64,000 nucleotides of DNA, taken from positions 296,778 through 360,777 of the forward strand of contig JAJDAT010000049.1 in assembly GCA_029261715.1 (NCBI GenBank), read 5' to 3'. Position numbers and translations under genes: made by a program. This stretch comes from Nitrospinia bacterium (lineage in GTDB: Bacteria; Nitrospinota; Nitrospinia; Nitrospinales; JAJDAT01). This document shows, one piece after another, positions 32,857 to 55,164 of this stretch. Under the pieces are notes generated by a model. That model did no database searches. It had not been told where the DNA came from and saw only the letters and a list, made by a program, of their open reading frames with translations. Within the stretch, counting starts at the first letter, position 1. Each line of letters starts with the position of its first letter.

Positions 32857-33630
32857 TTATGTCATTGAGTTTAAATAAAGCCATATTATTTGGTCGCCAG
32901 AAAAAATTGCGATGAGAGTGGCTCCCGCTAAAAAAGGTCCGAATGGAACTTTACTTTTTCGTCCTTTTTTCCCCAGAAGAATTAGGGGTAAACCATAAAT
33001 GGTGCCTAATAAGGAGCCAGAAAAAATAATTAATAAAGTATTTTTCCAAGCTAAAAGAGCTCCTACGGCTGCCATATATTTTATATCACCGCCTCCCATG
33101 CCTTTTCCACCGCTAAAAACCGCTATTAAATAGAAAAGACCTCCTCCTATGATAAAGCCAATGAGAGAGGGTAATAATCCATTCATGTATGAACCTGCGG
33201 CAAAGCCAAATAGTATCCCTGGAAGCGTGATGACATCTGGAATTATCTGATGTTTCCAATCAATGATTGTTATTACTACGAGAGTGGGAACAACTATTGA
33301 GAAAATCATGGTTTCCCAACTTAACCCAAATTTTAAGTAAACCCCCGCTAAAAGGATTCCAGTTATTAACTCTACTATCGGATAAATAATCGAAATTCTA
33401 GAGCTGCAATTTCTGCATTTACCAAGAAGAGTCAAATAGCCTAGCAGAGGGACATTGTCTCTCCAGGCAATTGGATTTTGGCAAGCAACGCAATAAGATG
33501 AAGGGAAAACGATAGATTCTTCGCGTGGCAAACGATAAATGCAAACATTACAGAAACTGCCTACCGCCAATCCAAATATAAAAAAATAAGTCGTTAATAG
33601 CCAAGTAGGAAGGGAATTAATAAATTCCAT
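32857..33630 (-). CDS. pilD: Type IV prepilin peptidase / N-methyltransferase
   Basis: GSFCNVCIYRLP, two CxxC, IDW..IIPD, GMGGGD, VPFGPFL. Confidence 0.96.
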   Translation of the reverse strand: MEFINSLPTWLLTTYFFIFGLAVGSFCNVCIYRLPREESIVFPSSYCVACQNPIAWRDNVPLLGYLTLLGKCRNCSSRISIIYPIVELITGILLAGVYLKFGLSWETMIFSIVVPTLVVITIIDWKHQIIPDVITLPGILFGFAAGSYMNGLLPSLIGFIIGGGLFYLIAVFSGGKGMGGGDIKYMAAVGALLAWKNTLLIIFSGSLLGTIYGLPLILLGKKGRKSKVPFGPFLAGATLIAIFSGDQIIWLYLNSMT

Positions 33631-36405: not shown

Positions 36406-37431
36406 TTGATGTCTAGTTTAAAAGTTTTAATCGTAGAAGACAGTTTAATGGTTCAGGAAGTTTTAAAGGAAATACTTTCTTCCGATCCAGAAATTGAAGT
36501 GGTTGGAGTCGCTGGAAATGGTCAAGAAGGAATCCAAAAAGTCGAAAAATACAAGCCAGATATTATTACGCTTGATATCAATATGCCAATAATGAATGGT
36601 TTGGATGCCATTGAGGAAATAATGGGAAGTCAGCCGCTTCCAATTTTAGTCGTTTCTAGCTCGGAAGACGCCAAAACGGCTTTTGACGCTTGTTCTAGGG
36701 GAGCGTTAGAGGTATTTCCTAAGAGTAAACTCGATGCCGCTAGGGCAGACGTTTTAATTCACAAAGTTAAATTATTATCCAAAATAAAAGTTATTCGTCG
36801 ATTTAAGAAGAGAAACAGCAGAGTTGCAATTCCAGATTTCAATACGGCGCCAGCAACTGAATCGAAGTTTGAAAAAGTAGTGGCTATAGCTTGTTCCACC
36901 GGAGGACCAAAGGCTCTTTCGGTTATTTTATCTGAGTTAAGTCCTCAATACCCTTTCCCAATAGCAATTGCGCAACACATGGAAAATGGTTTTGGAGAGG
37001 GTTTTGCGGCTTGGTTAAACGACATCTCAACTAATCCTGTTTGTGAGGCTAAAGAAGGAGATTATTTGGCTTCTGGGAAAGTATATGTTTGTCCCCCTGA
37101 ATCTAATATGCAAGTTGCAACAGATGGGAGAATAAGTTTTCTTGGTGTCAATGAAATGAATTCTTTCAGGCCGTCTTGCGATATTTTATTAGCCTCTTTA
37201 GCGTATTCATTTCGAGAGAAAAGTGTTGGATTGATATTGTCAGGAATGGCAGATGATGGAGTAGCTGGAATTGAAAAGATTAAAACTAGCGGCGGGACAA
37301 CCATTGCTCAGGATGAAGAAAGTAGCGTTGTTTTTGGTATGAATTCGCGGGCAATCAATGCGGGAGTTATCGAAAGAGTTTTGCCATTAAACGAAATCGC
37401 AATGTATCTCAATCAAATAGCAAAGAGATAG
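36406..37431 (+). CDS. cheB: Chemotaxis response regulator protein-glutamate methylesterase
   Basis: REC domain plus IACSTGGP, IAQHM, SGMADDG. Confidence 0.97.
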   Translation: MMSSLKVLIVEDSLMVQEVLKEILSSDPEIEVVGVAGNGQEGIQKVEKYKPDIITLDINMPIMNGLDAIEEIMGSQPLPILVVSSSEDAKTAFDACSRGALEVFPKSKLDAARADVLIHKVKLLSKIKVIRRFKKRNSRVAIPDFNTAPATESKFEKVVAIACSTGGPKALSVILSELSPQYPFPIAIAQHMENGFGEGFAAWLNDISTNPVCEAKEGDYLASGKVYVCPPESNMQVATDGRISFLGVNEMNSFRPSCDILLASLAYSFREKSVGLILSGMADDGVAGIEKIKTSGGTTIAQDEESSVVFGMNSRAINAGVIERVLPLNEIAMYLNQIAKR

Positions 37432-37434
37432 TTA

Positions 37435-38925
37435 ATGACTATTGAAACGATTAATCAGGGAATAGATGTTTTGCCTTTTAGGCAACTTTTGATTGATCGA
37501 ATATCTACGGGGTACAAAGAAGATACGTTGAATCAATTGCCTGCGGCAATAGTTCAGCGGATGGAATTGAATCAAATAATTAAACCGGCTGAATATTTTT
37601 TTCTTTTACAGAAAGACAACGCTGAATTTACAAAGTTAGTAAACTTGTTAACTGTAAATGAAACCTATTTTATGAGAGAACAGGGGCACTTTAATGTTCT
37701 AGTTAACCGTTTATTCCCGGAATTTATCAAAAATAGAAAAGGTAACGAAAAGTTTAAAATATTGAGTGCAGGATGCTCTTCTGGGGAAGAGTTGTATTCC
37801 GCTTTGATTTCCTTAACTTTAAAGTTTGGCAAAGAAATATTAAAAACGATACATGCCGAGGGAGTTGATATTGACTCTGAAATATTAGAAAAAGCTAAAA
37901 AAGGAATTTATTATCAAAATTCTTTTAGGAATGTTGATACTTACTTTATCGACGCTTTTTTCTCAGAATATGAAGAGCAATATAAAATTAACGAAAATTT
38001 TTTAGATTCTGTTTTTTTTAGTCAAGTGAACCTTGCGGACTCAAGTTTCTCATTTGATTCAAAGTGGAACGTGATTTTCTACCGCAATGTTTCGATCTAT
38101 TTCGTTCCAGAAATTAGAAAAGAAATATTTAATAATTTGGTAAATGCGTTGAAAGAACCAGGATATTTATTTACAGGGATTGTTGAAACAAGTCATCACA
38201 ACTTTGGTATTTTGCCGTTAGAAGAAATAGACGATCATTATTTATTTAATAAGAAAAGTGAATTTTTTAATAAAAATAGTATACGGCCTGATAAATTTAA
38301 GAAAGCTAAGCGAGATTTACCCTACAAAAAGAAGACTCAAAAATTATTTTCTGGTTCTCAGCAAGAAAAACTTAAGAAAGATAATTCAACAAGGAAAATA
38401 ACAAAGGAAGATTCCTATGAGGAAGCTTTTCAAAAAGCTTTGGGATTAGCTAAAAGAGGACAAAGACAAAAAGCTTTAGAGAGTATTGAAAGTATTTTTA
38501 CTAAATGGACTCCTAACGCCAACGATTATTTGTTACGCGCTAATATTTTAGTTAGTTTAGAGAAGTTGGATCAAGCTTTAACTGATTGTTTGACTGCATT
38601 GGAAATTGAAGAATGGAATCGCCAGGCATATTTGCTTTTGGGTATTATTTCTCGTTTGAAAAAAAATATTCCGGAAGCGGTTAAGCGCTTTAAAGGAGCT
38701 ATTTATATTGAATCGACCTGTTGGTTATCTCATTTTTATCTTGCCGAGATATTTATAGAAAATGAGAACTTTAGGGACGCAAAAAGAGAATATGGAATAT
38801 CGCGAAAGCTGTTATTAGAATCGGGTAGCTCTGAATGTGGTTTGATGATATTTCCTCTTTCATTTAATCAGGAGCAGCTAGTCCATCATTGTGAACGCAA
38901 ATTAGGCGAACTGGAAAAGCGCTAA
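37435..38925 (+). CDS. cheR: CheR methyltransferase with C-terminal TPRs (WspC-like)
   Basis: NETYFMRE, SAGCSSGEE, IFYRNV.IYF, then TPRs. Confidence 0.95.
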   Translation: MTIETINQGIDVLPFRQLLIDRISTGYKEDTLNQLPAAIVQRMELNQIIKPAEYFFLLQKDNAEFTKLVNLLTVNETYFMREQGHFNVLVNRLFPEFIKNRKGNEKFKILSAGCSSGEELYSALISLTLKFGKEILKTIHAEGVDIDSEILEKAKKGIYYQNSFRNVDTYFIDAFFSEYEEQYKINENFLDSVFFSQVNLADSSFSFDSKWNVIFYRNVSIYFVPEIRKEIFNNLVNALKEPGYLFTGIVETSHHNFGILPLEEIDDHYLFNKKSEFFNKNSIRPDKFKKAKRDLPYKKKTQKLFSGSQQEKLKKDNSTRKITKEDSYEEAFQKALGLAKRGQRQKALESIESIFTKWTPNANDYLLRANILVSLEKLDQALTDCLTALEIEEWNRQAYLLLGIISRLKKNIPEAVKRFKGAIYIESTCWLSHFYLAEIFIENENFRDAKREYGISRKLLLESGSSECGLMIFPLSFNQEQLVHHCERKLGELEKR

Positions 38926-38935
38926 AACTTTACCT

Positions 38936-41296
38936 ATGGCTTTTGATAAGAAAAAATTCATTCATAAATTTGTTGATGAAGCCAACGATCATATAGACAG
39001 GCTGAACGAAGGTTTAGTGAGTTTGGAATCTAATCCTGGGGATGAAGAAACCGTAAGCGAAATCTTTCGATCTGCGCATACTATTAAGGGTTCTTCTAGA
39101 ATTTTAGGATTAATTTCTATAAGTGTAGTAGCGCATAAACTAGAAGACGCTCTTTCGGCTTTAAGAGATGGAAAGATTTCTCAAAGCAAAGTTTTATTTA
39201 ATTTGCTTTTTAAAGCTGCTGATTTGATCTCGGAGTTTGTTCAAAGAGTTCAAGAAGGCGAGGAAGTTGAAGATGATACCACTGAAATTTGTGAACGTTT
39301 AGAAAAGGCCGCTTTAGGCGAACTAGAAGATGAGGCTGTTACCGAACCGCCTCCAGAAAAAATAGTTGAAAAAGCTGAAGAAAAAGAAAGTTCCTTTAAC
39401 AAAATAGAAAAGGAAGAATCTCTTGAAGAAGAAACTCCTGTTGTTAAAACAACCACTGAGCAAGTTTCTTTAAAAAAAGAATCTTCCCCCCCATCAGATG
39501 TATCTGTTCCTAAAGACGTTTCAGTCTCTCCGTCTTCTCCTAAACCCCAAGCGCAAAAACCACTAAAGAAACCTCGAGTTTCTGAGACAGTTCGAGTCAA
39601 AACGGAAAAGTTAGATGAAACAGTTAATTTAATGGGTGAAATTGTTTCCAATCATATCCGTTTAAAGCAAAACTGGGTTGATATAAACGAAATAGGAAAA
39701 GTTTCTAAGAAATACTTAGAAACCTTTTCAGGTTTTACGTATGAAGACGGGAAGCTAAGTTCAGAGGATAGTCGTGATCTTTTTGAACAATTTCAGGGCA
39801 TTTATGGGAAGTTAAGGCAACTTTCAGTTTGGACCAAAGATGTTTTAAATTTTCAGACTTTATTGACAGATCAGTTGCGTGAAAAAGTTTTGAAAATGAG
39901 AATGTTACCTTTGTCCACTGTCTTAGACGCTTTTCCAAGAATGGTCCGCGACATATCTTCTACATGCAATAAAGAGGTTAATTTTTTAGTCGAAGGCGGA
40001 GAAACTGAGCTAGATAAAAAAATTATAGAAAAAATTGGAGACCCATTATTACATATGATCCGCAACAGCGTCGATCATGGTATTGAAGCTCCTGCCGATA
40101 GAATACGGGATGGTAAGCCTGAAGCTGGAACCATTAGATTAAAGGCTTCCTATGAAGGCGGTAATGTTTTGCTTGAATTGCGCGACGATGGTCGTGGAAT
40201 TCCTTTGAGAAAGATCAAGGAAAAAGCCTTGGCAAAAAAAATGTTTGGTGAAGAAATGCTGAACAATATGACCGAAAATGAAATCGTTAATTTGATTTTT
40301 AGACCCGGGTTTAGCACTAGCGCTGCAATTACGGATGTTTCGGGACGGGGAGTAGGAATGGATGTCGTTCGAGAAAACATCGTTATGAACTTAAAGGGAT
40401 CTATTCAGGTTGAAACGGTAGAAGGGAAAGGAACTTGTTTTTTTATAAGGTTGCCGTTGACCCTTGCCGTAATGCGCGTTTTACTGATTTCTGTTTCAAA
40501 TCACAAGTTTGCTCTTCCTTTAGACTCGGTTAAAGAAATAGTTAAAGCAAGTAAAGAGCAAATAATTAAGGTCGTAGATAAAAGAGCGATTTCTTTGAGG
40601 GACGAAATCATTCCTATTGTAAATTTGGACTTTGCTCTAGACTTGCCTGTAAAAAGTAATGGACAGTCAGAAGAAGTTAATATTGTGCTTGTAGAGATGG
40701 GAAACGAATGCTTAGGACTAGTGGTTGATACAATTTTAAGCGAAGAAGATATGGAAATTAAATCTCTACCCAACCACATGAAAAATAATGAAATAGTTTC
40801 AGGAGTTACTTTGTCGGGTAAAAACGAAGTTGTGCTAGCTCTACACGTGCCTAAATTGTTTTTTATTGCTAAGGACGAAAATCCCGATAAATTGACTCCA
40901 GAATCCGAAGTCAATTTTATTGAAGAACAAAAACATAATATATTAGTTGTTGACGATTCCGAAAGCGCTCGCGAAGTGCAAAAGAGTATTTTAGAGTCTT
41001 TTGGCTATAAGGTTGCGCTTGCTGTGGATGGTGTAGATGGGTATAAGGTAGCGCAGGAGAAACAATTCGATTTAGTGATATCCGATATTGAAATGCCGAG
41101 GATGAATGGATTTGAATTTATCAAGAAACTAAAGATGGAAGATTCCTATCGACACACGCCAGTTATTGTCGTTAGTTCACGGAATGAAGAATTATATAAA
41201 AGGAAGGGAATGCAGGCTGGCGCTGATGCATTTATTGTAAAAAGCGGATTTGATCAATCTAAATTGTTGAAAATGGTGCAAAACTTAATACATTAA
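38936..41296 (+). CDS. cheA: Hybrid CheA histidine kinase with C-terminal receiver (WspE-like)
   Basis: HPt FRSAHTIKG, RNSVDHGIE, DDGRG, SGRGVGMD, CheW domain, REC domain. Confidence 0.97.
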   Translation: MAFDKKKFIHKFVDEANDHIDRLNEGLVSLESNPGDEETVSEIFRSAHTIKGSSRILGLISISVVAHKLEDALSALRDGKISQSKVLFNLLFKAADLISEFVQRVQEGEEVEDDTTEICERLEKAALGELEDEAVTEPPPEKIVEKAEEKESSFNKIEKEESLEEETPVVKTTTEQVSLKKESSPPSDVSVPKDVSVSPSSPKPQAQKPLKKPRVSETVRVKTEKLDETVNLMGEIVSNHIRLKQNWVDINEIGKVSKKYLETFSGFTYEDGKLSSEDSRDLFEQFQGIYGKLRQLSVWTKDVLNFQTLLTDQLREKVLKMRMLPLSTVLDAFPRMVRDISSTCNKEVNFLVEGGETELDKKIIEKIGDPLLHMIRNSVDHGIEAPADRIRDGKPEAGTIRLKASYEGGNVLLELRDDGRGIPLRKIKEKALAKKMFGEEMLNNMTENEIVNLIFRPGFSTSAAITDVSGRGVGMDVVRENIVMNLKGSIQVETVEGKGTCFFIRLPLTLAVMRVLLISVSNHKFALPLDSVKEIVKASKEQIIKVVDKRAISLRDEIIPIVNLDFALDLPVKSNGQSEEVNIVLVEMGNECLGLVVDTILSEEDMEIKSLPNHMKNNEIVSGVTLSGKNEVVLALHVPKLFFIAKDENPDKLTPESEVNFIEEQKHNILVVDDSESAREVQKSILESFGYKVALAVDGVDGYKVAQEKQFDLVISDIEMPRMNGFEFIKKLKMEDSYRHTPVIVVSSRNEELYKRKGMQAGADAFIVKSGFDQSKLLKMVQNLIH

Positions 41297-41382
41297 TTTT
41301 TATATATACCTGAGCTAGAATTATACGTGAACGTTTTAATCTTAGTTACAATTAGGGAAATGAATTAGAAAGCGGAAAAAGA

Positions 41383-43632
41383 ATGGATCCTAATAATATA
41401 TTAATTGTAGACGACGACAGTTTTGTCCGTGAAATATTGGTCGATATCTTAGAATCTGAAGATTTCAAAACTGAAACTGCGGAAAACGGTTTAGACGCTC
41501 TTAACAAATATAAGGAAGATGGTTCTAAATTTGATTTAGTTGTTTCTGATATCAATATGCCAATTATGGGTGGAGTTGATTTGATTAAGTCGCTTCGTAA
41601 CGATGTTCAATCTGAAACTCCAGTCGTTGTTTTATCAGGAAATAACGAAGTTGCTATTGCCATAGACGCGATCAACAGTGGCGCAAGCGAATATATTTTG
41701 AAGGATGAGAATTTACAAGAGACAATCATTTTAGCTATTAACAAGGCTTTAGAAAAAAAACGAATTATAGATGAAAATCGTGATCTAGTTAAGAACATCA
41801 CCGAAAAAAATAAAGAAATGGGAGGTATCATTCACCGTATGACAGAGTTAGGAACAGCTCTTTCTGCGGAGAAAAATTTTCAGAACTTAATGGAAATTAT
41901 CATTTCTAACGCTCGTGAATTAACGTATGCGGATGCAGGTACCTTGTATTTAATCGAAAATGGAAAACTATCCTTCAAAATAGTTCAGAACGATACTTTA
42001 AAAATTCATTTAGGTGGAAAATCTAGCGAAGAAATTAAGTTTCCCCCAGTAGAAATAAAAGAATCTAACGTTTCAGGTTATTCGGCCTTAAAGAAAGAGG
42101 TTGTTAATATTCCAGATGTTTATTCCTCGGAATTGTTTGATTTTACCGGACCCAAAAAATTCGATCAGACTTCTAACTATAGATCTAAATCAATGTTGGT
42201 AGTTCCTATGGTAAATCGAATGAATGAGGTTGTTGGCGTTCTTCAATTGCTGAATTCTAAAGATTCTGAAACAGGTGAAGTGGTCACATTTTCAGCAAAT
42301 TCTGAAGAGTACATCAAAGCCTTAGGGTCTCAAGCTGCAGTAGCTGTAAATAATTTGTTACTTGAAGCGAAAGCGGAAAAACTATTTGAAGAGATTTTAG
42401 ATATAAAAAATTACAATGAAAGCATCCTTGAAAGTCTTACTAATGGCGTTATTACATTGGATGCTAATAATTTGATTATTAAATGTAATGCCGCTGTTTT
42501 AAGGATTTTAGAGGCCCAAGAAGATCAAATTATTAATCAATCTGCGCAGAAATTTTTTGCACAAAATAATCGCTGGGTATTGGATAACTTAAAAAGGGTT
42601 ATTCAAATGGGATCCCCGGCCATAGTTATGGATACCGAGTTGGTTTTTGATGATGATCGCGTTGTTCCTTTAAACCTTACGGCAGTTCCCTTGAAAAATG
42701 CGAAGTCTGAATTAATTGGGTCCATGTTAGTTCTAGAGGATATTACTTCTGAAAAGCGGATGAAAGGGACCCTTGCGAGATATATGGATAAGGATGTGGC
42801 TGAGCAATTGATGGAAGGCGGAGATGATATGCTGGGCGGCCAAAGTCAGGAAGCTTCAGTTTTGTTTTCTGATATTCGGAGCTTTACAACCCTTACCGAA
42901 AAATTAGGTCCGGCGGGGACTGTTGCAATGTTAAATGAATATTTTACCGAAATGGTTGAGTATATTTTTAAATATAAAGGAATTCTTGATAAATATATAG
43001 GAGACGCAATTCTAGCTGTTTTTGGAGTTCCTTTTACGAACGAGCAAGATCCCGAAAATGCCGTAAATGCTGCAATTGGGATGGTTAAATCTCTTAAAGA
43101 GTTTAATGCAAAGAGAATTTTAGTGAATAAAGACCCTATCGATATTGGAATTGGAGTTAATACGGATACTGTTTTGGCTGGAAATATTGGATCTGAAAAA
43201 AGGATGGATTATACCGTTATTGGCGATGGGGTTAATTTAGCTGCGAGACTAGAAGGGGCCACCAAGGCTTATGGAGCAAAGATTTTGATTAGCGAATCCA
43301 CGAAAAATAAGTTAACTCAAGACCATATATACCGCGAAGTTGACAAATTAGTTGTAAAAGGAAAAACTCAACCCGTTAGTGTTTTTGAGGTTTTAGATTT
43401 TCATGACGAATCAACTTTTCCGAAAATGCAGGAATGTATAGAAATATTTAACGAGGGGTATCAATCTTATCTTAGGCGCAATTGGGACGAAGGCATTATG
43501 TTTTTTGAAGAAGTGTTGGCGATCAATCCAAATGATAAACCAGCATCATTATATGTTGAACGATTGCAGCTTTATAAAGAGAATCCACCTGCCGATGGCT
43601 GGGACGGTTCTTTTGTAATGACCACTAAATAA
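41383..43632 (+). CDS. REC-GAF-PAS-class III adenylate cyclase with C-terminal TPR
   Basis: REC (VDDD..SD.NMP), GAF (SKSMLVVPM..GVLQLLN), PAS, LFSDIRSFT, DKYIGDA, DYTVIGDGVNLAARLE. Confidence 0.95.
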   Translation: MDPNNILIVDDDSFVREILVDILESEDFKTETAENGLDALNKYKEDGSKFDLVVSDINMPIMGGVDLIKSLRNDVQSETPVVVLSGNNEVAIAIDAINSGASEYILKDENLQETIILAINKALEKKRIIDENRDLVKNITEKNKEMGGIIHRMTELGTALSAEKNFQNLMEIIISNARELTYADAGTLYLIENGKLSFKIVQNDTLKIHLGGKSSEEIKFPPVEIKESNVSGYSALKKEVVNIPDVYSSELFDFTGPKKFDQTSNYRSKSMLVVPMVNRMNEVVGVLQLLNSKDSETGEVVTFSANSEEYIKALGSQAAVAVNNLLLEAKAEKLFEEILDIKNYNESILESLTNGVITLDANNLIIKCNAAVLRILEAQEDQIINQSAQKFFAQNNRWVLDNLKRVIQMGSPAIVMDTELVFDDDRVVPLNLTAVPLKNAKSELIGSMLVLEDITSEKRMKGTLARYMDKDVAEQLMEGGDDMLGGQSQEASVLFSDIRSFTTLTEKLGPAGTVAMLNEYFTEMVEYIFKYKGILDKYIGDAILAVFGVPFTNEQDPENAVNAAIGMVKSLKEFNAKRILVNKDPIDIGIGVNTDTVLAGNIGSEKRMDYTVIGDGVNLAARLEGATKAYGAKILISESTKNKLTQDHIYREVDKLVVKGKTQPVSVFEVLDFHDESTFPKMQECIEIFNEGYQSYLRRNWDEGIMFFEEVLAINPNDKPASLYVERLQLYKENPPADGWDGSFVMTTK

Positions 43633-43695
43633 TAATTTTGCGACAAAAGACATTTTTGATTATTCATTTTAGTTTGAAGAGTATGGGGGATTGCT

Positions 43696-44256
43696 GTGGG
43701 CGAAGAAATTGAAAAAAGAAAAAGCGATCGAATACTTGAAGCGATAAAAAAACGTTTGGATGAAAAGCAAACTATCCAAGTTGAAGAGAAAAAGGTTGAA
43801 CTTGTCGTATTTACATTGAACGACGCCTTTTATGCATTTTATGGGAAAGACGTTAAAGAAATTCTTTCAGTATTAACTATTTACTTTGTTCCAGGGACTC
43901 CAAAATATATTTTAGGAATTGTTAATGTCCGTGGGGATATTCAATCTGTGTTGAATATCAGGACATTTTTAAATATACCGGAACAAGGATTAACTGAGGG
44001 AAAAGGACGGATTGTGATTGCTGAGAAAAATGGCGTACGATCTGGAGTTCTAGTCGATTCTGTTGTAGATGTTGTCGAAGTGCCAGAGGAGTCTATTAAA
44101 CAAGCGATTTCAACTTTGAATGAAGAGATTCGATATTTTGTTGTTGGAGAGACAACGTATAAAAACAATAATGTCGTTTTGTTAGATATAGGAAAGGTTT
44201 TTGAAAAAATATCTGAAGGTAAAATCGAACCATCAGCTGAAATCCCAAATAAATGA
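43696..44256 (+). CDS. cheW: CheW scaffold protein
   Basis: VPGTP..LGIVNVRG.I, GVLVDSVVDV. Confidence 0.93.
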   Translation: MGEEIEKRKSDRILEAIKKRLDEKQTIQVEEKKVELVVFTLNDAFYAFYGKDVKEILSVLTIYFVPGTPKYILGIVNVRGDIQSVLNIRTFLNIPEQGLTEGKGRIVIAEKNGVRSGVLVDSVVDVVEVPEESIKQAISTLNEEIRYFVVGETTYKNNNVVLLDIGKVFEKISEGKIEPSAEIPNK

Positions 44257-44744
44257 GTGGAGTTGAAACTAAATCAAATAGAGAGTCTGATCAAGTTTCC
44301 GATGATGAAATTCGCCTATTGATTTTTAAAATTATGGGTGTCTGTTTTGGCGCAGATATGGAACAAATCGAAGAGATGGTCGATTTTTCTCAAGCTCAAC
44401 AAGAAGATTGGGATATTAGAAACTTTACAGAGGCTATTTCCTTTAGAGATATTGAGGTTGAATATAAAAAACCAAAAGTGATTTTAATAAAAGATAGCGA
44501 CCAAGACGTTGGTATTGTTATTGATCAACCGGAAAACATTGTAAATATTAATATTAAATCGATAAGATTGCTGCCGCCTCTTCTTGAAAACCATAAAACG
44601 GTAGACGCTATATGGGCTGCAGTGTTTTTGGGTGAAGAATTAGCTTTGTTAGTTGATTTTTATCGGCTTCAAAACTCTTTACCCAAAATAGAGAATCAGA
44701 AATTGTTGGAAAATTCTGAAGATGCTGAAGTTGAATCAAATTAA
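44253..44744 (+). CDS. Divergent CheW-like protein
   Basis: LLIF.I..CFGAD...IEE, GIVID.P.NI, LLVD; position in the che operon. Confidence 0.75.
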   Translation: MSGVETKSNRESDQVSDDEIRLLIFKIMGVCFGADMEQIEEMVDFSQAQQEDWDIRNFTEAISFRDIEVEYKKPKVILIKDSDQDVGIVIDQPENIVNINIKSIRLLPPLLENHKTVDAIWAAVFLGEELALLVDFYRLQNSLPKIENQKLLENSEDAEVESN

Positions 44745-44777
44745 ATTTGTAATTGCATAATAATTAAGAGGTGGATT

Positions 44778-44915
44778 TTGACGACAACGCGCAAACTTTT
44801 CAAAGCCTGCAGTATTGCGGTCAAAAACTTTTATCGTAGTTGTTTCTATTCTGATTCGCAGGCAGTAAACCGTCGTTTGATTAATAACGAATTGGTCCGG
44901 GAGGACGTTAAATGA
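44778..44915 (+). CDS. Candidate 45-aa small protein coupled to the chemoreceptor gene
   Basis: GAGG SD at 44768-44771, TTG at 44778, open for 45 codons; TGA overlaps the MCP ATG (ATGA). Confidence 0.45.
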   Translation: MTTTRKLFKACSIAVKNFYRSCFYSDSQAVNRRLINNELVREDVK

Positions 44916-47347
44916 AGAACTGGTCTTTAAACAAAAAAGCAATATTCGTATTTAGTTTGATGATCGTAGTTATGGGGATTTGCGCTTACGTCATTTTTGA
45001 CTCTTTAAGTTCAGCTCAAAAAGACGCGGATATAACTAACGCTCTAGGAAGACAAAGAATGTTAAGTCAAGCTATGGGTAAGGCTGCCTTAGGAAATGCT
45101 ATGGCTAAAAGCCGTAAGCAAAATATTGTTCAACGCGTCATGTCTTTGGATCGTTATATTACTCAAATGAGAGGGACATATACAAAGGAAGTAATAGGAC
45201 CAGCCAAAGAAAAAGATCTCACAATTAGTATGGACCCTGAATCCGAAGGACATCCTGCAATTCCATTCCCAGCTACTTTGACTCGAATGGTCAACGCTAA
45301 ATTTGGAGCAGGAAGAGATTTTACTATCGATATAATTTCTCCAGATCCAGTAAACCCTAATAAGGGGTTAATGACGGATATGGATAAAGAAGCTTATGAC
45401 TTTTTGACAAAAAAATCGAAGCGCGTTTATACAAAGACTTTGGAATCAGATAATAAGTTATATATCAGATTATATACTGCGGATAAAGCTACCGTTCAGG
45501 CTTGTGTCGATTGTCATGTGGCTTTGAAAGGCGGTAAAAAGTTTACTATCGGCGATGTATTTGGTATCCGAAAGTACAACTTGTTGTTTTCAGCCGACAT
45601 TGCAAGAGGTAAGGGTGAATTAAATGCAAGTTTGGTAGAGTTTGATCGCGCTAAAGAAATTTTTAAAAAAACCTTGCGCGCTATGCGAAAGGGAGGGGAA
45701 TACCCTACGGATATGGGGCTTAAAGCGACGGCTTTTATAAATTCCATAAATAATGAATCAATTCAAGATAACCTGGAGGAAGTAGATAGAGTTTTTTCCA
45801 AATTCTTGGCGGCAGTGGATAAACTTCTTACCTCAGAAGTCGATTCTCCAAAGTATAGAGATGCGCAACAAGAAATCTTGGTTTTATCTAATGAGTTACG
45901 AGATAAAAGCAACAAAATTGTAGAATTGTATAACCGTCTCGCGAATGAAAATCAAAAACGCATAAAGAGCACGGTTATAGTTTTTATCATCCTGACATTA
46001 ACGGCTTTAATTTGCATAGCTTATTTCTTTTCGACTTCTGTCGTAAAACCGGTTCGCAAAATTTCTGGAGTTATGGGTGAGATAGCTAAGGGAAATTTCT
46101 TGCAAGAAAATTTGCCGGTTAATTCTGAAGACGAAATTGGAATTTTGTCCAATACATATAATACTATGTTAGGCACTATGAAGGAGATAGTGAATCAAGC
46201 AAAAGATATAGCTGCAGGCGATTTATCGAAGACTTATGAGTTGAAGGGAGAGCTTTCTATAGCCTTTGGGAAAATGACTCATGAACTTAGAGATAAACAA
46301 AAAGCGGATATTGAGTTTAAAGAAATGGCTACAGAGCGACAAGATCAGGCTGAAGATTTGAAAGATAAGGTTGACGCTATTTTGGAATGCGTGAGCGCTG
46401 CGGCTAAAGGCGATTTGAGTAAGCATATTGACGTAAAGGGAGAGTCTGCTATTGGACAAATGGGAGAAGGTCTGGAAATGTTCTTTGATAATTTGTCGGT
46501 GAACATGAAAGGAATAGCTAATATGGCTAACGATTTAGCTTTATCCGCTAAAGAAATTTCTAGTTCTGTACAAGACCAGGCTTCAGTCTCGGCTGAGCAA
46601 TCTGCTTCAGTAACTGAAATTTCTTCTACGGTTGAAGAGCTTTCCGCTTCGTCAAATCAAGTAGCGGAAAATGCCGATTCTGTAGCTCGGATTTCGACTG
46701 ATTCGTTACATGATTCAGAACGTGGTATGAAAGCTATTGGGTCATTGAAGCTTAAAATGGATGAGATTTCTGATGATAATCAAGTTGGAATGAAAGAAAT
46801 TGTCGAATTAGGTAGAAAATCAAATGAAATTGGCAAGGTTATGGAGATTATTAACAATATTGCGGATCAAACTAAGTTAATTGCGTTCAATGCCGCTATT
46901 GAGGCCTCCAGCGCAGGCGAAGCAGGAAAACGTTTTGGGGTTGTAGCGGTTGAAATTCGCCAATTAGCCGATAATGTAATGGATTCGACGGGTGAAATTC
47001 AAAGTAAGATTGACGAAATTCAACAGGCAATTAATCGTTTGGTGATAAATTCAGAACAAGGATCAAGTCGAATTAAAGAAGGAAATATGTTGGCGGGACA
47101 AACGATTGAAGAATTGGAGAGGTTGGTTGACAGAGCTAAGAGCGCTGCAGATGCGGCATCTCAGATTTCCCTTTCAACAAAGCAGCAAAAAACTGGAACA
47201 GACCAAGTATTGTTGGCTTTAAAAGAAATTGTTAACGGAACGCGACAATCGTCTGCCGCAATTAAGCAAACCTCAAACGTGACGCATAAATTGTCTGAAA
47301 TGTCAGAAAAACTTAATGAATTAGTTAGTAGGTTTAAACTGAATTAA
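44912..47347 (+). CDS. Methyl-accepting chemotaxis protein with PilJ/NarX-like sensor and inserted c-type haem (Tll0287/DUF3365-like) domain
   Basis: TM1, NALGRQRMLSQ, CVDCH, TM2, HAMPs, IADQTKLIAFNAAIEA signalling tip; GGAGG SD. Confidence 0.93.
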   Translation: MKNWSLNKKAIFVFSLMIVVMGICAYVIFDSLSSAQKDADITNALGRQRMLSQAMGKAALGNAMAKSRKQNIVQRVMSLDRYITQMRGTYTKEVIGPAKEKDLTISMDPESEGHPAIPFPATLTRMVNAKFGAGRDFTIDIISPDPVNPNKGLMTDMDKEAYDFLTKKSKRVYTKTLESDNKLYIRLYTADKATVQACVDCHVALKGGKKFTIGDVFGIRKYNLLFSADIARGKGELNASLVEFDRAKEIFKKTLRAMRKGGEYPTDMGLKATAFINSINNESIQDNLEEVDRVFSKFLAAVDKLLTSEVDSPKYRDAQQEILVLSNELRDKSNKIVELYNRLANENQKRIKSTVIVFIILTLTALICIAYFFSTSVVKPVRKISGVMGEIAKGNFLQENLPVNSEDEIGILSNTYNTMLGTMKEIVNQAKDIAAGDLSKTYELKGELSIAFGKMTHELRDKQKADIEFKEMATERQDQAEDLKDKVDAILECVSAAAKGDLSKHIDVKGESAIGQMGEGLEMFFDNLSVNMKGIANMANDLALSAKEISSSVQDQASVSAEQSASVTEISSTVEELSASSNQVAENADSVARISTDSLHDSERGMKAIGSLKLKMDEISDDNQVGMKEIVELGRKSNEIGKVMEIINNIADQTKLIAFNAAIEASSAGEAGKRFGVVAVEIRQLADNVMDSTGEIQSKIDEIQQAINRLVINSEQGSSRIKEGNMLAGQTIEELERLVDRAKSAADAASQISLSTKQQKTGTDQVLLALKEIVNGTRQSSAAIKQTSNVTHKLSEMSEKLNELVSRFKLN

Positions 47348-47771: not shown

Positions 47772-48623
47772 GTGGAGGCAGCACAAATTAGCCAATATTT
47801 AAAAAATACAAAAAGATATTTATACTTGTTAATAGGAGTGGCATTTTGGGCTTTATTAGCGGGTTGTGATCAGAGCGAAGATGAAATTGTCGTGGCTTCT
47901 GCGGAGTTAAAATTAGATACAGCGGCCGGTTTATTTTACGATCACATGGTTTTGGAGATAAGTTTTGATCCGAGTTTAAAAAAAGACTCTTCGAAAAAAA
48001 GCAAAGACTCTAAAGATGATGATAAAAGTTTTTTGATAAAACGTACTGAAGATATAAAAATACTCCCTGAATCTGAAATAAATCTTGGTTATTTAAATCT
48101 TGATCGTTTTGAAGATTCTTTGGCTTATAGGAATAAAGCGGCCTTAGACGCTAGGCCAAGTATTGGTATTACGGAACGACTGCGCGTAGCTGATAAAAAG
48201 CTCATTTTTGGTGGAAAAGGGTTTGATACTCGGGATTTCGAGAAATTAAACAATGGTAAGTTAAGTGGTGACTTTTCAACTCATATAAACTCTCAAAGCG
48301 AAAAAATACCAAGCCCTCCTTCTATAACAGCGCTAAACATGAATCAGAAGCTGCGCCCGGAAGAAAAAAATTTAATTTTTCATAGTCCTTCTACCACTTT
48401 GAATAAAGTGGAGGTCGACTTGCCTTTAAGCGCTAAAGAAAATCAGAGGAAGGTTGAAAATACTAAAAATAGTTCACGGATGACAAAAAAAATTCCGGAA
48501 ACTTTAGTCCATTTAAAAAAGAACCCTGAAGAGCTGATTCAATTAAGACCCAAAAGAAATGCTTTAGACTTGCTTAGAGAAAATCCAAATATAATAAAAG
48601 ACCGTTACAACCAAGCCCCGTAG
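47772..48623 (+). CDS. Hypothetical lipoprotein
   Basis: Lipobox LLAG|C after a hydrophobic segment. Confidence 0.8.
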   Translation: MEAAQISQYLKNTKRYLYLLIGVAFWALLAGCDQSEDEIVVASAELKLDTAAGLFYDHMVLEISFDPSLKKDSSKKSKDSKDDDKSFLIKRTEDIKILPESEINLGYLNLDRFEDSLAYRNKAALDARPSIGITERLRVADKKLIFGGKGFDTRDFEKLNNGKLSGDFSTHINSQSEKIPSPPSITALNMNQKLRPEEKNLIFHSPSTTLNKVEVDLPLSAKENQRKVENTKNSSRMTKKIPETLVHLKKNPEELIQLRPKRNALDLLRENPNIIKDRYNQAP

Positions 48624-53066: not shown

Positions 53067-53615
53067 TTAATTAGGTAAGGTTTTACGCAAGACGTTCAAA
53101 GAGTTTAAAAGAGTTACAGTGTGGTTGTCATAATCTAATTCACCCGCTACCCAATCCTTAAAGTCGTGATAAAGAGTGGATCCTGCGTCTCTTATTTGAC
53201 TTTTTTTAATATCGATCACGTCTAATACAGAACTAGCAAGTATCCCTCCACGGATATCTTCTTTTTCCAAAATCATGATTCGATTGTTAAGGTTTTTTTC
53301 TTCAGCAGGTAGTCCTAAGAAATCTCCAATTTCCAAAACCGATTCAATTTCTCCCCGGATGTTGACTAACCCTAATATATGCTTAGGCGCAGTGGGAACT
53401 GGATTGATTTTTTTGATAGGAATGATTTCTGAGACGTCCAATCCTTTTAGCGCAAAATAAGCTCCGCGGATTTCGAATATTACTAAAATTATTAATGGTT
53501 CCTTTACGACACCAGTAGCGCCTTTCTTTTCGCGAATTTTTTTGATTCGTTTAACAATTCGCGAGGACTTTTCTTTTGGGTTTTGATCGGATGTCATTTC
53601 TGTTTCTTTTGCCAA
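53067..53615 (-). CDS. cheW: CheW protein outside the che operon
   Basis: PVPTAP..LGLVNIRGEI; paralogous to 43696..44256. Confidence 0.9.
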   Translation of the reverse strand: MAKETEMTSDQNPKEKSSRIVKRIKKIREKKGATGVVKEPLIILVIFEIRGAYFALKGLDVSEIIPIKKINPVPTAPKHILGLVNIRGEIESVLEIGDFLGLPAEEKNLNNRIMILEKEDIRGGILASSVLDVIDIKKSQIRDAGSTLYHDFKDWVAGELDYDNHTVTLLNSLNVLRKTLPN

Positions 53616-53627
53616 AATAAATGGCGC

Positions 53628-55079: not shown

Positions 55080-55164
55080 GAGTCGACGGAATAAAGTTTT
55101 TTTACATGATATATCGAATTTATTTAAAATCCCAAGAGGTTTATATATTGGAGTTTTATAAAAA

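What the first reader, a model, noticed from the sequence alone, without database searches (positions are those of the whole stretch)
36406..47347. Self-contained Wsp-like chemosensory pathway with a cAMP output and a haem / nitrogen-oxyanion-type receptor
Seen: cheB, cheR-TPR, cheA-REC, REC-GAF-PAS-cyclase, cheW, cheW-like and an MCP in one run, with no stand-alone cheY. Established: this layout defines alternative-cellular-function (Wsp-type) systems, whose characterised output is the diguanylate cyclase WspR. Here that slot holds a class III cyclase with the ATP-specifying Lys (DKYIGD). Inference: an adapting sensory array that converts periplasmic nitrite/nitrate or redox status into cAMP rather than motility. 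This is the strongest candidate for an undescribed system in the window.
Basis: partly seen in the sequence, partly recalled or inferred. Interest (0 to 1): 0.88.

Follow-up and report, generated by a model that had tools for sequence, protein, structure and literature searches.

The report
Chemosensory pathway with cAMP-cyclase output
A seven-gene chemotaxis-like signalling cluster in a Nitrospinota bacterium seems to feed a haem- and nitrate-type membrane sensor into a cAMP-making enzyme instead of the flagellar motor, a wiring listed in genome surveys but never studied.

Summary
Window 36406-47347 (+) holds seven tightly spaced genes: CheB, CheR-TPR, CheA-REC, REC-GAF-PAS-class III cyclase, CheW, a weak CheW and an MCP. 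There is no single-domain CheY.

- **Cyclase:** it has every catalytic residue and the Lys/Thr pair of ATP-using class IIIb enzymes. Its best solved relative is P. aeruginosa CyaB.
- **Linkage:** all 10 Nitrospinota relatives with a REC-bearing orthologue (4 genera, 3 families) keep it directly after CheA-REC, even where the gene order is rotated. The linked CheAs form one clade.
- **Sister clusters:** these carry REC-GAF-HD-GYP or REC-GAF-Ser/Thr kinase in place of the cyclase.
- **Receptor:** a 40H MCP whose periplasmic sensor is a PilJ/McpN-type helical bundle. It carries a near-complete nitrate "N-box" and an inserted c-haem Cache (Tll0287/sCache_heme) domain.

Best reading: an adapting ACF/Wsp-like pathway that turns periplasmic N-oxide or redox status into cAMP. 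REC-mononucleotidyl-cyclase regulators in cheR-TPR clusters were catalogued in 2012 (PMC3447774), but my searches found no characterised example. I rate it a new variant of a known kind. All function is inferred.

The parts
36406..37431 (+). CheB methylesterase with an N-terminal receiver domain (341 aa). Putative phospho-acceptor D57; active-site Ser164 in the motif ACSTGG.
   Evidence: Pfam CheB_methylest 6.8e-56 and Response_reg 1e-20. NCBIfam CheB subfamily NF001965, 328 bits against a cut-off of 293. Motifs read.
37435..38925 (+). CheR methyltransferase (SAM-binding domain, residues 75-252) with a C-terminal TPR-like extension (about residues 330-460).
   Evidence: Pfam CheR 5e-41. The TPR_2, TPR_1 and TPR_11 hits at residues 365-404 are below their gathering scores. 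NCBIfam gives a MamA-like TPR stretch at 306-433, 6.8e-08.
38936..41296 (+). Hybrid CheA-REC kinase (786 aa). Hpt domain with H48, a low-complexity linker in place of a P2 domain, dimerisation domain, HATPase, CheW-like P5 domain, and a C-terminal receiver (D673, D674, D717, S747, K769).
   Evidence: Pfam results; sequence; residue positions.
41383..43632 (+). Output protein (749 aa), in order: REC (1-113) with D10, D11, D56, S85, K107; a long helix (111-162); GAF (164-324); a helix (305-339); PAS (346-459); two short helices (456-478); a class III cyclase domain (488-670) with D497, K537, D541, T611, N618, R622; and a C-terminal three-helix TPR-like tail (682-733).
   Evidence: Pfam. The listed residues are invariant in 22 orthologues. 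The cyclase domain aligns to P. aeruginosa CyaB 3r5g at 2e-34. AF2 model with mean pLDDT 80.7.
43696..44256 (+). CheW coupling protein (186 aa).
   Evidence: Pfam CheW 6.2e-24.
44253..44744 (+). Divergent CheW-like protein (163 aa). Its start overlaps the end of the preceding cheW by 4 nt.
   Evidence: Pfam CheW 5e-08, 33.1 bits against a cut-off of 23.5, covering only the second half of the profile. No NCBIfam hit. Conserved in relatives at 28-87% identity.
44912..47347 (+). Methyl-accepting receptor (811 aa): TM1 at 10-30, periplasmic sensor at 31-352, TM2 at 353-375, HAMP at 373-421, a further linker, and a 40H-length signalling hairpin at about 530-811. The hairpin tip is E670. Methylation-like sites lie at 572 and 755.
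   Evidence: Pfam, hydropathy and tip position, length comparison with 40H-type and E. coli-type MCP models, methylation motif scan.
45002..45967 (+). Periplasmic sensor: a PilJ/McpN-type helical bundle with an N-box-like motif (T42-NALGRQRMLSQ-53, including R49), and an inserted c-haem Cache (Tll0287/sCache_heme) domain at about residues 68-230 with C198-x-x-C201-H202.
   Evidence: AF2 model with pLDDT 88.8. The Foldseek top hit is 5b82 (Tll0287), probability 1.00. VIA-align gives McpN-LBD 6gcv Z 15.4, PilJ 7zjr Z 14.9 and 5b82 Z 12.4. Invariant columns. The N-box definition comes from PMC6381276. Motif census of 120 homologues.

Best explanation
This is an operon-like cluster for a non-motility (ACF/Wsp-like) chemosensory pathway whose effector is a receiver-gated adenylate cyclase.

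Proposed mechanism:
1. The 40H transmembrane receptor reads the periplasm with a composite sensor. One part is a PilJ/McpN-type helical bundle carrying the nitrate-type N-box. The other is an inserted c-type-haem Cache domain of the family whose signalling members bind NO.
2. The receptor, with CheW and the CheW-like protein, controls autophosphorylation of the hybrid kinase CheA-REC at H48.
3. The phosphoryl group goes to D56 of the REC-GAF-PAS-cyclase encoded immediately downstream. It also goes to CheB and to CheA's own receiver, which acts as a sink or relay.
4. Phosphorylation is passed along the long REC-GAF and GAF-PAS helices and changes the activity of the homodimeric class IIIb cyclase. 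Periplasmic N-oxide or redox status is thereby converted into cytoplasmic cAMP.
5. cAMP is read by the genome's many cNMP-binding proteins.
6. CheR-TPR and CheB methylate and demethylate the receptor, which makes the cAMP response adaptive.

Shown here: gene content, intact catalytic and phospho-acceptor residues, conserved CheA-cyclase adjacency, and the sensor fold and motifs. Inferred: every phosphotransfer step, the sign of regulation, the product, and the ligand.
For: **Layout.** There are seven co-directional genes with gaps of 167 bp or less and no CheY. Elsewhere the genome has a separate CheY-CheX-CheA-CheW-CheB cluster and FliM, so motility has its own pathway.

**Effector.** The REC quintet D10/D11/D56/S85/K107 and the cyclase residues D497, K537, D541, T611, N618 and R622 are present. 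D10, D11, D56, K107 and the six cyclase residues are invariant in 22 orthologues. The best solved match is the adenylate cyclase CyaB (3r5g, 2e-34), which shares the same Lys and Thr. The guanylate cyclase Cya2 (2w01) differs at both positions in the printed alignment.

**Linkage.** A REC-bearing orthologue occurs in 11 of 120 Nitrospinota genomes, counting the window's own. In 9 of 9 fetched loci, and in G013 by its coordinates, it lies directly after CheA-REC with CheB, CheR and the same MCP in the cluster. This holds in the three loci whose order is rotated to W-MCP-B-R-A-cyclase. The 10 cyclase-linked CheAs form one clade, SH-aLRT 98 on the quick tree. Che genes lie next to the REC-less GAF-PAS-cyclase relatives in 0 of 79 genome loci (the 80th locus, L001, is the same-genus orthologue). 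The same is true of 0 of 87 further loci, one of which has a lone MCP about 5 kb away.

**Class features.** CheR-TPR, CheA-REC without P2, a multidomain response regulator and a 40H receptor are all present. The receptor is 28 aa (4 heptads) longer than the E. coli-type MCP models and close in length to the model (CtpM) that I take from recall to be 40H-type. PMC3447774 ties CheR-TPR and multidomain regulators to ACF pathways.

**Sensor.** See the parts list. NO binding by a signalling sCache_heme protein is reported in bioRxiv 10.64898/2026.02.01.703092, section 13.

**Readers of cAMP.** The genome has 43 cNMP_binding matches and 7 cyclase domains.
Against: - No experiment, expression data or phosphotransfer evidence exists for this cluster.
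- The CheA class was not assigned with MiST models or with reference ACF CheAs. According to PMC10782961, CheA-REC also occurs in the F3, F5 and Tfp classes.
- The strict published N-box pattern is not matched (10 of 12 positions), and the Pfam PilJ hit is below its gathering score (23.8 against 26.6 bits).
- Helical-bundle Z-scores are inflated by the fold type, as the tool's own note warns.
- The GAF and PAS domains could gate the cyclase independently of REC.
- The orthologue in G014 carries an internal TAG.
- The distribution within the phylum is patchy: 11 of 120 genomes.
- The promoter and terminator scan was no better than shuffled sequence, so a single transcript is not shown.
Confidence: 0.65

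Rival explanations
1. The cluster still steers motility (flagella or type IV pili) by cross-talk, for example through the single-domain CheY encoded elsewhere. On this view the cyclase is only a side branch that tunes expression.
For: The genome is flagellated (FliM). It has 22 MCPsignal matches and a CheY on contig C33. A prepilin peptidase gene lies 3 kb upstream, at window 32857-33630. The receptor scaffold is PilJ-like.
Against: There is no CheY, CheZ, CheX or CheV in this cluster in any of the 9 fetched relatives. The C33 cluster has its own CheA, CheW, CheB, CheY and CheX. Sister CheA clades all carry REC-GAF-enzyme effectors rather than CheY.
Confidence: 0.15
2. The cyclase is a neighbour and not the kinase's target. 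On this view its receiver is served by another histidine kinase, or the protein is driven mainly by its GAF and PAS ligands. The pathway's real output would then be CheA's own receiver or an unlinked regulator.
For: REC-GAF-PAS-cyclases also occur away from any CheA in L006, L021 and L024 (Pseudodesulfovibrio, Terriglobia, Rhodospirillales). The GAF-PAS-cyclase core is widespread with other N-termini. The hybrid CheA has a receiver of its own.
Against: The adjacency holds in 10 of 10 relatives across three families and survives a gene-order rotation. The paralogous and sister CheAs are each followed by a REC-GAF-X protein, the pattern expected of cognate kinase-regulator pairs.
Confidence: 0.12
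3. The cyclase domain makes a nucleotide other than cAMP (cGMP or another cNMP), or it is catalytically dead and acts as a scaffold.
For: Class III domains include guanylate cyclases and promiscuous enzymes. The second-best PDB hit, Cya2 (2w01), is one I recall as a guanylate cyclase. Pfam's cNMP_binding family does not distinguish cAMP from cGMP.
Against: K537 and T611 match the ATP-using CyaB, while Cya2 differs at both positions in the alignment printed. Both metal-binding Asp residues and the Asn/Arg transition-state pair are invariant in 22 orthologues.
Confidence: 0.06

Closest known systems
Wsp system of Pseudomonas (WspA-F plus WspR), the model ACF chemosensory pathway. The component list is recalled; the ACF features come from PMC3447774.
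   Same: It has the same parts list: one transmembrane MCP, two CheW-type proteins, CheR-TPR, hybrid CheA-REC, CheB, a receiver-fused nucleotide cyclase as the only effector, and no CheY.
   Different: The effector here is REC-GAF-PAS-class III adenylate cyclase (cAMP) and not REC-GGDEF (c-di-GMP). The gene order differs. The receptor has a haem/N-box periplasmic sensor. Whether this CheA groups with WspE was not tested.
Pil-Chp system and CyaB of P. aeruginosa (the link between them is recalled; CyaB structure 3r5g)
   Same: It is a chemosensory pathway that raises cAMP through a class IIIb cyclase, and CyaB is the best solved match to this cyclase domain (2e-34). The receptor scaffold is PilJ-like.
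   Different: As I recall it, in Pil-Chp the cyclase is an unlinked membrane protein without a receiver and is controlled indirectly through PilG. Here the cyclase carries its own receiver and sits directly after CheA, which implies direct phosphotransfer.
REC-mononucleotidyl-cyclase regulators in cheR-TPR clusters, catalogued by Munoz-Martinez et al. 2012 (PMC3447774; abstract and section 9 read)
   Same: They are the same kind of arrangement: a cheR-TPR chemosensory cluster with a receiver fused to a cd07302 cyclase domain.
   Different: The paper mentions them only as a category in a figure and a supplementary table. I could not open Table S2, so the organisms and architectures are unknown to me. 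It gives no sensor, synteny or mechanism analysis.
McpN nitrate chemoreceptor of P. aeruginosa (6gcv; PMC6381276) and the NarX/NarQ sensors
   Same: They share the helical-bundle PilJ fold (Z 15.4, 126 residues aligned, 19% identity). The N-box core G-x-Q-R-M-L-S-Q is present, including the equivalent of the nitrate-binding R61 (here R49).
   Different: The strict N-box pattern fails at 2 of 12 positions. A 160-residue c-haem Cache domain is inserted after helix 1. McpN feeds flagellar chemotaxis.
sCache_heme (DUF3365/Tll0287) sensors, for example the P. azotoformans Cache_heme-HAMP NO receptor (bioRxiv 10.64898/2026.02.01.703092 and 10.64898/2026.05.25.727664)
   Same: All have the CxxCH c-haem Cache fold in the periplasm, fused to a HAMP-containing signalling protein. 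MCP fusions are listed in the first preprint's figure 2 legend.
   Different: Here the Cache_heme domain is embedded in an N-box PilJ bundle. A term search of that preprint's main text found no mention of this combination (0 hits for PilJ, nitrate, 4HB or four-helix). Downstream signalling here runs through a Che array and not through a Ser/Thr kinase.

Membership tests
ACF-class (Wsp-type) chemosensory pathway | Multidomain response regulator in the cluster in place of a single-domain CheY | tested here: met
   REC-GAF-PAS-cyclase is the only non-CheB, non-CheA receiver protein. There is no room for a CheY ORF. The criterion is taken from PMC3447774.
ACF-class (Wsp-type) chemosensory pathway | CheR fused to TPR repeats | tested here: met
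   The CheR domain is followed by a C-terminal TPR-like region. The individual Pfam TPR hits are below their gathering scores, and the NCBIfam MamA-like TPR stretch scores 6.8e-08.
ACF-class (Wsp-type) chemosensory pathway | CheA groups with reference ACF CheAs (MiST class model or phylogeny) | not tested
   No reference ACF CheA sequences or MiST models were available. CheA-REC without P2 is compatible with ACF but also occurs in F3, F5 and Tfp (PMC10782961). Wuichet and Zhulin 2010 is not held in the library.
ACF-class (Wsp-type) chemosensory pathway | Receptor of the 40-heptad class | tested here: met
   Residues 483-809 align to positions 236-557 of the CtpM model (327 against 322 aa). Residues 487-810 align to positions 222-517 of the E. 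coli-type models (324 against 296 aa, a difference of 4 heptads). The C-terminal arm from tip E670 is 141 aa. That CtpM is 40H and that ACF pairs with 40H receptors are both recalled.
Wsp system proper | Effector is a REC-GGDEF diguanylate cyclase (WspR) | tested here: not met
   The effector carries Guanylate_cyc (PF00211) and has no GGDEF domain. It therefore works like Wsp but is not a Wsp system.
Class III (subclass b) adenylate cyclase | Two metal-binding Asp, substrate-specifying Lys plus Thr, and the transition-state Asn and Arg | tested here: met
   D497, D541, K537, T611, N618 and R622 are invariant in 22 orthologues and aligned to CyaB 3r5g. The assignment of roles to these residues is recalled from work on mammalian and bacterial class III enzymes.
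Class III (subclass b) adenylate cyclase | cAMP synthesis | not testable with these tools
   This needs an enzyme assay.
Response-regulator receiver domain (phosphorylatable) | The acidic pair, phospho-acceptor Asp, Ser/Thr and Lys | tested here: met
   D10, D11, D56, S85 and K107 are present. D10, D11, D56 and K107 are invariant in alignment A1.
sCache_heme / Tll0287-like (PF11845) sensor domain | CxxCH haem-c motif within a Cache/PAS-like fold | tested here: met
   PF11845 scores 35.3 bits against a cut-off of 24.1. C198, C201 and H202 are invariant in 30 sequences, and CxxCH is present in 120 of 120 homologues. Foldseek gives 5b82 at probability 1.00, E 1.8e-3. VIA-align gives Z 12.4 over 143 residues.
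sCache_heme / Tll0287-like (PF11845) sensor domain | Covalent haem and NO or redox response | not testable with these tools
   This needs spectroscopy on the purified periplasmic domain.
N-box (nitrate-binding) PilJ domain, as in McpN/NarX/NarQ | Match to the published pattern [IVL]-[ND]-x-A-G-x-Q-R-M-L-[ST]-Q | tested here: not met
   T42-N-A-L-G-R-Q-R-M-L-S-Q53 matches 10 of 12 positions (T in place of I/V/L, L in place of A). 24 of 120 homologues match strictly and 112 of 120 match the core G-x-Q-R-M-L-[ST]-Q. It is therefore filed as N-box-like and not as a proven member.
N-box (nitrate-binding) PilJ domain, as in McpN/NarX/NarQ | Nitrate-contacting residues (McpN G58, R61, M62) and the PilJ helical-bundle fold | tested here: met
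   G46 and R49 are invariant and M50 nearly invariant in alignment A2. McpN-LBD 6gcv gives Z 15.4 and PilJ 7zjr gives Z 14.9. The Pfam PilJ hit is below its cut-off (23.8 against 26.6 bits). Helical bundles inflate Z-scores, so the fold evidence is moderate.

The most novel reading that the evidence does not exclude
One adapting receptor array reads two nitrogen-oxide cues at once: nitrate or nitrite at the N-box dimer interface, and NO or redox state at the inserted c-haem. It drives two second-messenger enzymes through two paralogous hybrid kinases. The window's CheA-REC activates the REC-GAF-PAS adenylate cyclase. The receptor-less CheA-REC + REC-GAF-HD-GYP pair on contig C20 docks to the same array and controls cyclic-dinucleotide hydrolysis. 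More broadly, Nitrospinota would carry a family of Che modules with an exchangeable REC-GAF-X output cassette (X = adenylate cyclase, HD-GYP, Ser/Thr kinase). That would be the first direct CheA-to-cAMP relay.
Probability: 0.2. Interest if true: 0.85.

Novelty: new variant of a known kind. Interest (0 to 1): 0.62.

Why it matters
Chemosensory pathways with non-motility outputs are common in genomes, but only a handful have been studied (Wsp, Che3 of Myxococcus, Che3 of Rhodospirillum centenum). As far as I recall, the only well-known link from a Che-type array to cAMP is the indirect Pil-Chp/CyaB route.

A cluster in which the cyclase carries its own receiver directly after CheA would give a simple, reconstitutable system. 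It could be used to ask how an adapting receptor array shapes a diffusible second messenger as opposed to a motor.

The receptor also matters. It joins the nitrate-type N-box bundle to the newly defined c-haem Cache domain at a fixed spacing in at least 112 of 120 homologues. That suggests a widespread periplasmic sensor class for nitrogen oxides, found in MCPs and histidine kinases, which the papers I could search do not describe.

The sister clusters with HD-GYP and Ser/Thr-kinase outputs show natural output swapping on one REC-GAF chassis. This is useful both for the evolution of signalling and for engineering.

Tried and rejected
- Wuichet and Zhulin 2010, the source of the ACF class, is not held. 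ACF criteria therefore come second-hand from PMC3447774 and PMC10782961.
- Table S2 of PMC3447774, which would name the organisms with REC-cyclase regulators, is a supplement and was not opened.

**Searches for Che-linked REC-cyclases outside Nitrospinota**
- The genome-contig scan with alignment A1 and the metagenome scan with P0081 were both swamped by REC-less GAF-PAS-cyclases, because the patterns chosen lay in the cyclase domain.
- Che genes flanked the cyclase in 0 of 79 loci (the 80th locus, L001, is the same-genus orthologue). They did so in 0 of 87 further loci, where one had a lone MCP.
- A search of 209 genomes in the order of G120 (Desulfobacterales by the locus titles) found 7 matches at E <= 1e-150, all lacking REC.
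- Whether other phyla have this wiring therefore stays open. These blanks are not evidence of absence.

**Other steps that gave nothing usable**
- No RNA holder was listed for the stretch. All four runs that hold it are DNA runs from one study and may be the source sample.
- The promoter and terminator scan gave 39 and 10 sites, against 38.2 and 8.0 expected from shuffles, so it is uninformative.
- The careful CheA tree did not finish in 288 s. The quick tree (SH-aLRT only) is what I cite.
- Complex prediction was not run. An Hpt-receiver pair would pass by likeness to solved pairs, and the controls do not test specificity among receivers.
- The 148-aa ORF between CheA and the GAF-GGDEF gene in L203 has no Pfam hit, so a REC-GGDEF output there is not shown.
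- A profile search of the PDB with A2 was dominated by the MCP signalling domain, because A2 holds full-length proteins. It gave McpN and PilJ only at E 0.013. The single-sequence search gave PilJ at E 0.008.
- In one search the cyclase orthologue of G014 has one internal TAG, and I did not follow this up.

**Rejected idea**
- I considered that the organism is a nitrite oxidiser. The narG model found nothing in a genome that is 96.9% complete, and the three molybdopterin enzymes sit in ORFs of 752-876 aa. The model may miss periplasmic NXR, so this is 'not found with this query'.

Full report
**1. What is there**

Window 36406-47347 holds seven + strand ORFs separated by 3, 10, 86, 63, -4 and 167 bp.

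Pfam identifies them as follows:
- CheB (receiver plus methylesterase).
- CheR with a C-terminal TPR-like region.
- A hybrid CheA: Hpt, dimerisation domain, HATPase, CheW-like domain and a C-terminal receiver, with no P2 domain.
- A 749-aa REC-GAF-PAS-Guanylate_cyc protein.
- CheW.
- A divergent CheW-like protein.
- An 811-aa MCP.

NCBIfam agrees for CheB, CheR, CheA, CheW and the MCP.

Upstream, on the other strand, lie ligT, recA, recX and a prepilin peptidase. Downstream there is a 424-bp gap, then a gene with no family hit and a lipoprotein-like signal. There is no single-domain receiver gene and no space for one.

**2. The organism**

The window is contig C49:296778-360777 of a 5.33-Mb assembly in 52 contigs, 96.9% complete.
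- The nearest public locus (93% identity) is titled an uncultured Nitrospinota bacterium.
- The best named protein relative is from Candidatus Nitronauta litoralis (59% identity).
- The window has about 36% G+C.
- A narG/nxrA-type model found nothing. The three molybdopterin enzymes sit in ORFs of 752-876 aa. An NrfA-type nitrite reductase is present.

I therefore do not call the organism a nitrite oxidiser, although nitrogen oxides are clearly part of its metabolism.

**3. The effector**

In an alignment of 22 REC-bearing orthologues, these residues are invariant:
- Receiver: D10, D11, D56, K107.
- Cyclase: D497, K537, D541, T611, N618, R622.

S85 completes the receiver quintet.

The cyclase domain's best solved relative is the P. 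aeruginosa adenylate cyclase CyaB (3r5g, 2e-34). The printed alignment shows the same FSDIR, DK(Y/F)(I/V)GD and MDYT(V/I)IG motifs. The next hit, Cya2 (2w01), has other residues at the Lys and Thr positions. Lys plus Thr is the class IIIb ATP signature; this role assignment is recalled.

The AlphaFold model (pLDDT 80.7) shows:
- a receiver domain;
- a 50-residue helix running into the GAF domain;
- a 35-residue helix running into the PAS domain;
- two short helices before the catalytic domain;
- a three-helix TPR-like tail.

This is the usual architecture for passing a signal along helices to a dimeric cyclase.

**4. Is the cyclase really part of the pathway?**

- **Distribution.** A REC-bearing orthologue was found in 11 of 120 Nitrospinota genomes, the window's own included. 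It is in all five genomes of the window's genus and in three other genera of two other families. Seven further genomes have only REC-less relatives.
- **Synteny.** I fetched nine of the ten relatives' loci. In 9 of 9 the order CheB-CheR-CheA-cyclase is kept and the orthologous MCP is in the cluster. In three of them (genera g3 and g5) the CheW/MCP block has moved to the front while CheA-cyclase stays together. The tenth genome (G013) has CheA and the cyclase adjacent by coordinates.
- **Phylogeny.** In a quick maximum-likelihood tree of 21 CheAs, the ten cyclase-linked ones form a clade (SH-aLRT 98). The clade is distinct from the genome's other CheAs.
- **REC-less relatives.** The widespread REC-less GAF-PAS-cyclases are not next to Che genes, in 0 of 79 and 0 of 87 loci examined. 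Three REC-bearing cyclases from other phyla (L006, L021, L024) are not next to a CheA either.

So the receiver fusion together with CheA linkage is, in what I could see, a feature of one Nitrospinota clade.

**5. Output swapping**

The same genome has, on contig C20, a second hybrid CheA (44% identical). It is followed at once by a REC-GAF-HD-GYP protein whose REC-GAF half is 53% identical to the cyclase's. No receptor, CheW, CheB or CheR lies within 10 kb. The HD domain's best solved relatives are HD-GYP phosphodiesterases (5z7c, 4mcw). The three complete genomes of the genus also carry this pair.

Other Nitrospinota have CheAs 45-54% identical in similar clusters:
- In G006 the cluster runs CheR-CheA-CheW-CheW-REC-GAF-Ser/Thr kinase.
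- In G099 a GAF-GGDEF gene lies 1 kb beyond CheA. Its link to the pathway is unclear.
- In G105 and G098 the contig ends at CheA.

This fits the 'ACF superfamily with many outputs' picture of PMC3447774. It also shows a reusable REC-GAF chassis.

**6. Class of pathway**

The genome has four CheAs:
- a CheY-CheX-CheA-CheW-CheB cluster on C33, which is flagellar-type, with FliM on C25;
- an MCP(PilJ)-CheR-TPR-CheW-CheA-REC-CheB cluster on C5;
- the present cluster;
- the C20 pair.

The present cluster has the features the literature ties to ACF pathways: CheR-TPR and a multidomain regulator (PMC3447774, abstract and section 9). It also has a CheA with a receiver and no P2 domain (PMC10782961).

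The receptor is 40H by length:
- Its cytoplasmic part aligns almost gap-free to the model (CtpM) that I take from recall to be 40H-type.
- It is 28 residues, four heptads, longer than the E. coli-type models.
- The C-terminal arm from the hairpin tip is 141 residues.
- Two methylation-like sites lie about 13 heptads from the tip on either arm.

I could not run MiST class models or place the CheA among labelled references, so 'ACF' is a well-supported inference and not a tested membership. It is not a Wsp system in the strict sense, because the GGDEF effector is absent.

**7. The receptor's sensor**

Residues 31-352 are periplasmic, lying between two hydrophobic segments. Pfam finds Tll0287-like above its cut-off and PilJ just below.

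With 29 homologues the domain folds confidently (pLDDT 88.8). The model has a 69-residue first helix, an alpha/beta domain, and three further long helices.
- Foldseek's only strong hit is the c-haem protein Tll0287 (5b82, probability 1.00).
- VIA-align ranks the nitrate receptor McpN's ligand-binding domain first (6gcv: Z 15.4, rmsd 2.1, 126 of 126 residues, 19% identity).
- PilJ comes next (7zjr: Z 14.9, 23% identity).
- Tll0287 covers model residues 38-200 (Z 12.4).
- Other four-helix bundles score Z 13-14.5 at only 6-8% identity. The fold call is therefore moderate, and it is the sequence motif that singles out McpN and PilJ.

Martin-Mora et al. (PMC6381276, passages read) define the nitrate 'N-box' as [IVL]-[ND]-x-A-G-x-Q-R-M-L-[ST]-Q, with contacts G58, A59, R61 and M62. 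The window receptor reads T-N-A-L-G-R-Q-R-M-L-S-Q (residues 42-53). That matches 10 of 12 positions, and the Gly, the key Arg (R49) and the Met are all kept. These residues, and C198, C201 and H202, are invariant or nearly so in 30 sequences.

Among the 120 best homologues of the sensor (MCPs, some with haemerythrin tails, and hybrid histidine kinases, from Nitrospinota and Gammaproteobacteria):
- 120 have CxxCH;
- 112 have the core N-box;
- 24 match the strict pattern;
- the spacing between the two motifs is fixed at 151-156 residues.

The 2026 preprint that defines the sCache_heme family reports slow NO release from a signalling member (abstract and sections 7, 9 and 13 read). A term search of its main text found no mention of PilJ, nitrate or four-helix bundles. 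No paper in the library holds PilJ, N-box, haem, chemoreceptor and nitrate together. The composite sensor therefore looks undescribed in the library I could search.

**8. Mechanism proposed**

Periplasmic nitrate or nitrite (at the N-box) and/or NO or redox state (at the haem) set the receptor's signalling state. The receptor-CheW-CheA array then sets CheA-P. The phosphoryl group passes to D56 of the cyclase, to CheB, and to CheA's own receiver. The cyclase's output of cAMP changes. CheR-TPR and CheB reset the receptor.

The genome's 43 cNMP-binding matches and seven cyclase domains show heavy use of cyclic mononucleotides.

Not determined: the sign of each step, the ligand, the role of the GAF and PAS domains, and whether the C20 kinase shares the array.

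**9. Prior art and novelty**

Five literature searches found no characterised chemosensory pathway with a receiver-fused adenylate cyclase. The one relevant record is the 2012 survey, which lists 'mononucleotidyl cyclase' among output domains in cheR-TPR clusters. Its supplementary table was not available to me.

I therefore rate the finding a new variant of a known kind. It is a real, conserved and mechanistically legible system that has been catalogued but not studied, and its receptor type appears undescribed in the papers I could search.

**10. Limits**

- Everything functional is inferred from sequence, predicted structure and synteny.
- The relatives are kin, so 10 of 10 is not ten independent events. 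The gene-order rotation and the three families give perhaps two or three independent observations.
- The tree is a quick search with SH-aLRT support only.
- No expression data were found.

Noticed in passing
own genome G000:C20:37853-42165 (locus L112 9854-14166): An orphan pair made of a CheA-REC (774 aa, 44% identical to the window CheA) directly followed by a REC-GAF-HD-GYP protein (654 aa). Its REC-GAF half is 53% identical to the cyclase's. No MCP, CheW, CheB or CheR lies within 10 kb. The pair is conserved in three other genomes of the genus and may share the window's receptor array.
   Followed up: partly
window 53067-57264 (- strand): A run of two leucine-rich-repeat proteins (56254-57264 and 55165-56253), a caspase-family Peptidase_C14 protein (53628-55178) and a stand-alone CheW (53067-53615). 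This is an odd pairing of a chemotaxis coupling protein with a caspase/LRR set.
   Followed up: no
L205 5720-7762 (G006) and L203 638-2047 (G099): Related Nitrospinota Che clusters carry other effectors. G006 has REC-GAF-Ser/Thr protein kinase after CheA-CheW-CheW. G099 has a GAF-GGDEF gene 1 kb beyond CheA, with an unassigned 148-aa ORF in between.
   Followed up: partly
L106, L107, L108, L109 (genera g7 and g3): The orthologous CheA is 909-921 aa long, with a second N-terminal Hpt domain ahead of the usual one. In g7 a second paralogous MCP with the same sensor follows the first.
   Followed up: no
window 47772-48623 (+): A 283-aa ORF with no Pfam or NCBIfam hit and a lipobox-like LLAGC near its N-terminus. 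It is conserved after the MCP only within the genus, at 66-72% identity.
   Followed up: no
own genome, whole: The genome has a very large cyclic-nucleotide repertoire: 7 class III cyclase domains and 43 cNMP_binding matches. It also has 22 MCP signalling domains and 4 CheAs.
   Followed up: partly
G014:C14:30444-32690 (locus L105): The cyclase orthologue in one genome of the same genus has an internal TAG stop. This could be a pseudogene, a sequencing error or recoding; it was not examined.
   Followed up: no
own genome G000:C1:215217-216344: An NrfA-type cytochrome c552 nitrite reductase match (E 1.7e-146) has one TAA inside the match. No narG/nxrA-type match was found in the genome.
   Followed up: no
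own genome G000:C5:323000-331500 (locus L113): A third CheR-TPR/CheA-REC cluster has a PilJ-domain MCP, a double-CheW protein and CheB, but no adjacent effector.
   Followed up: no
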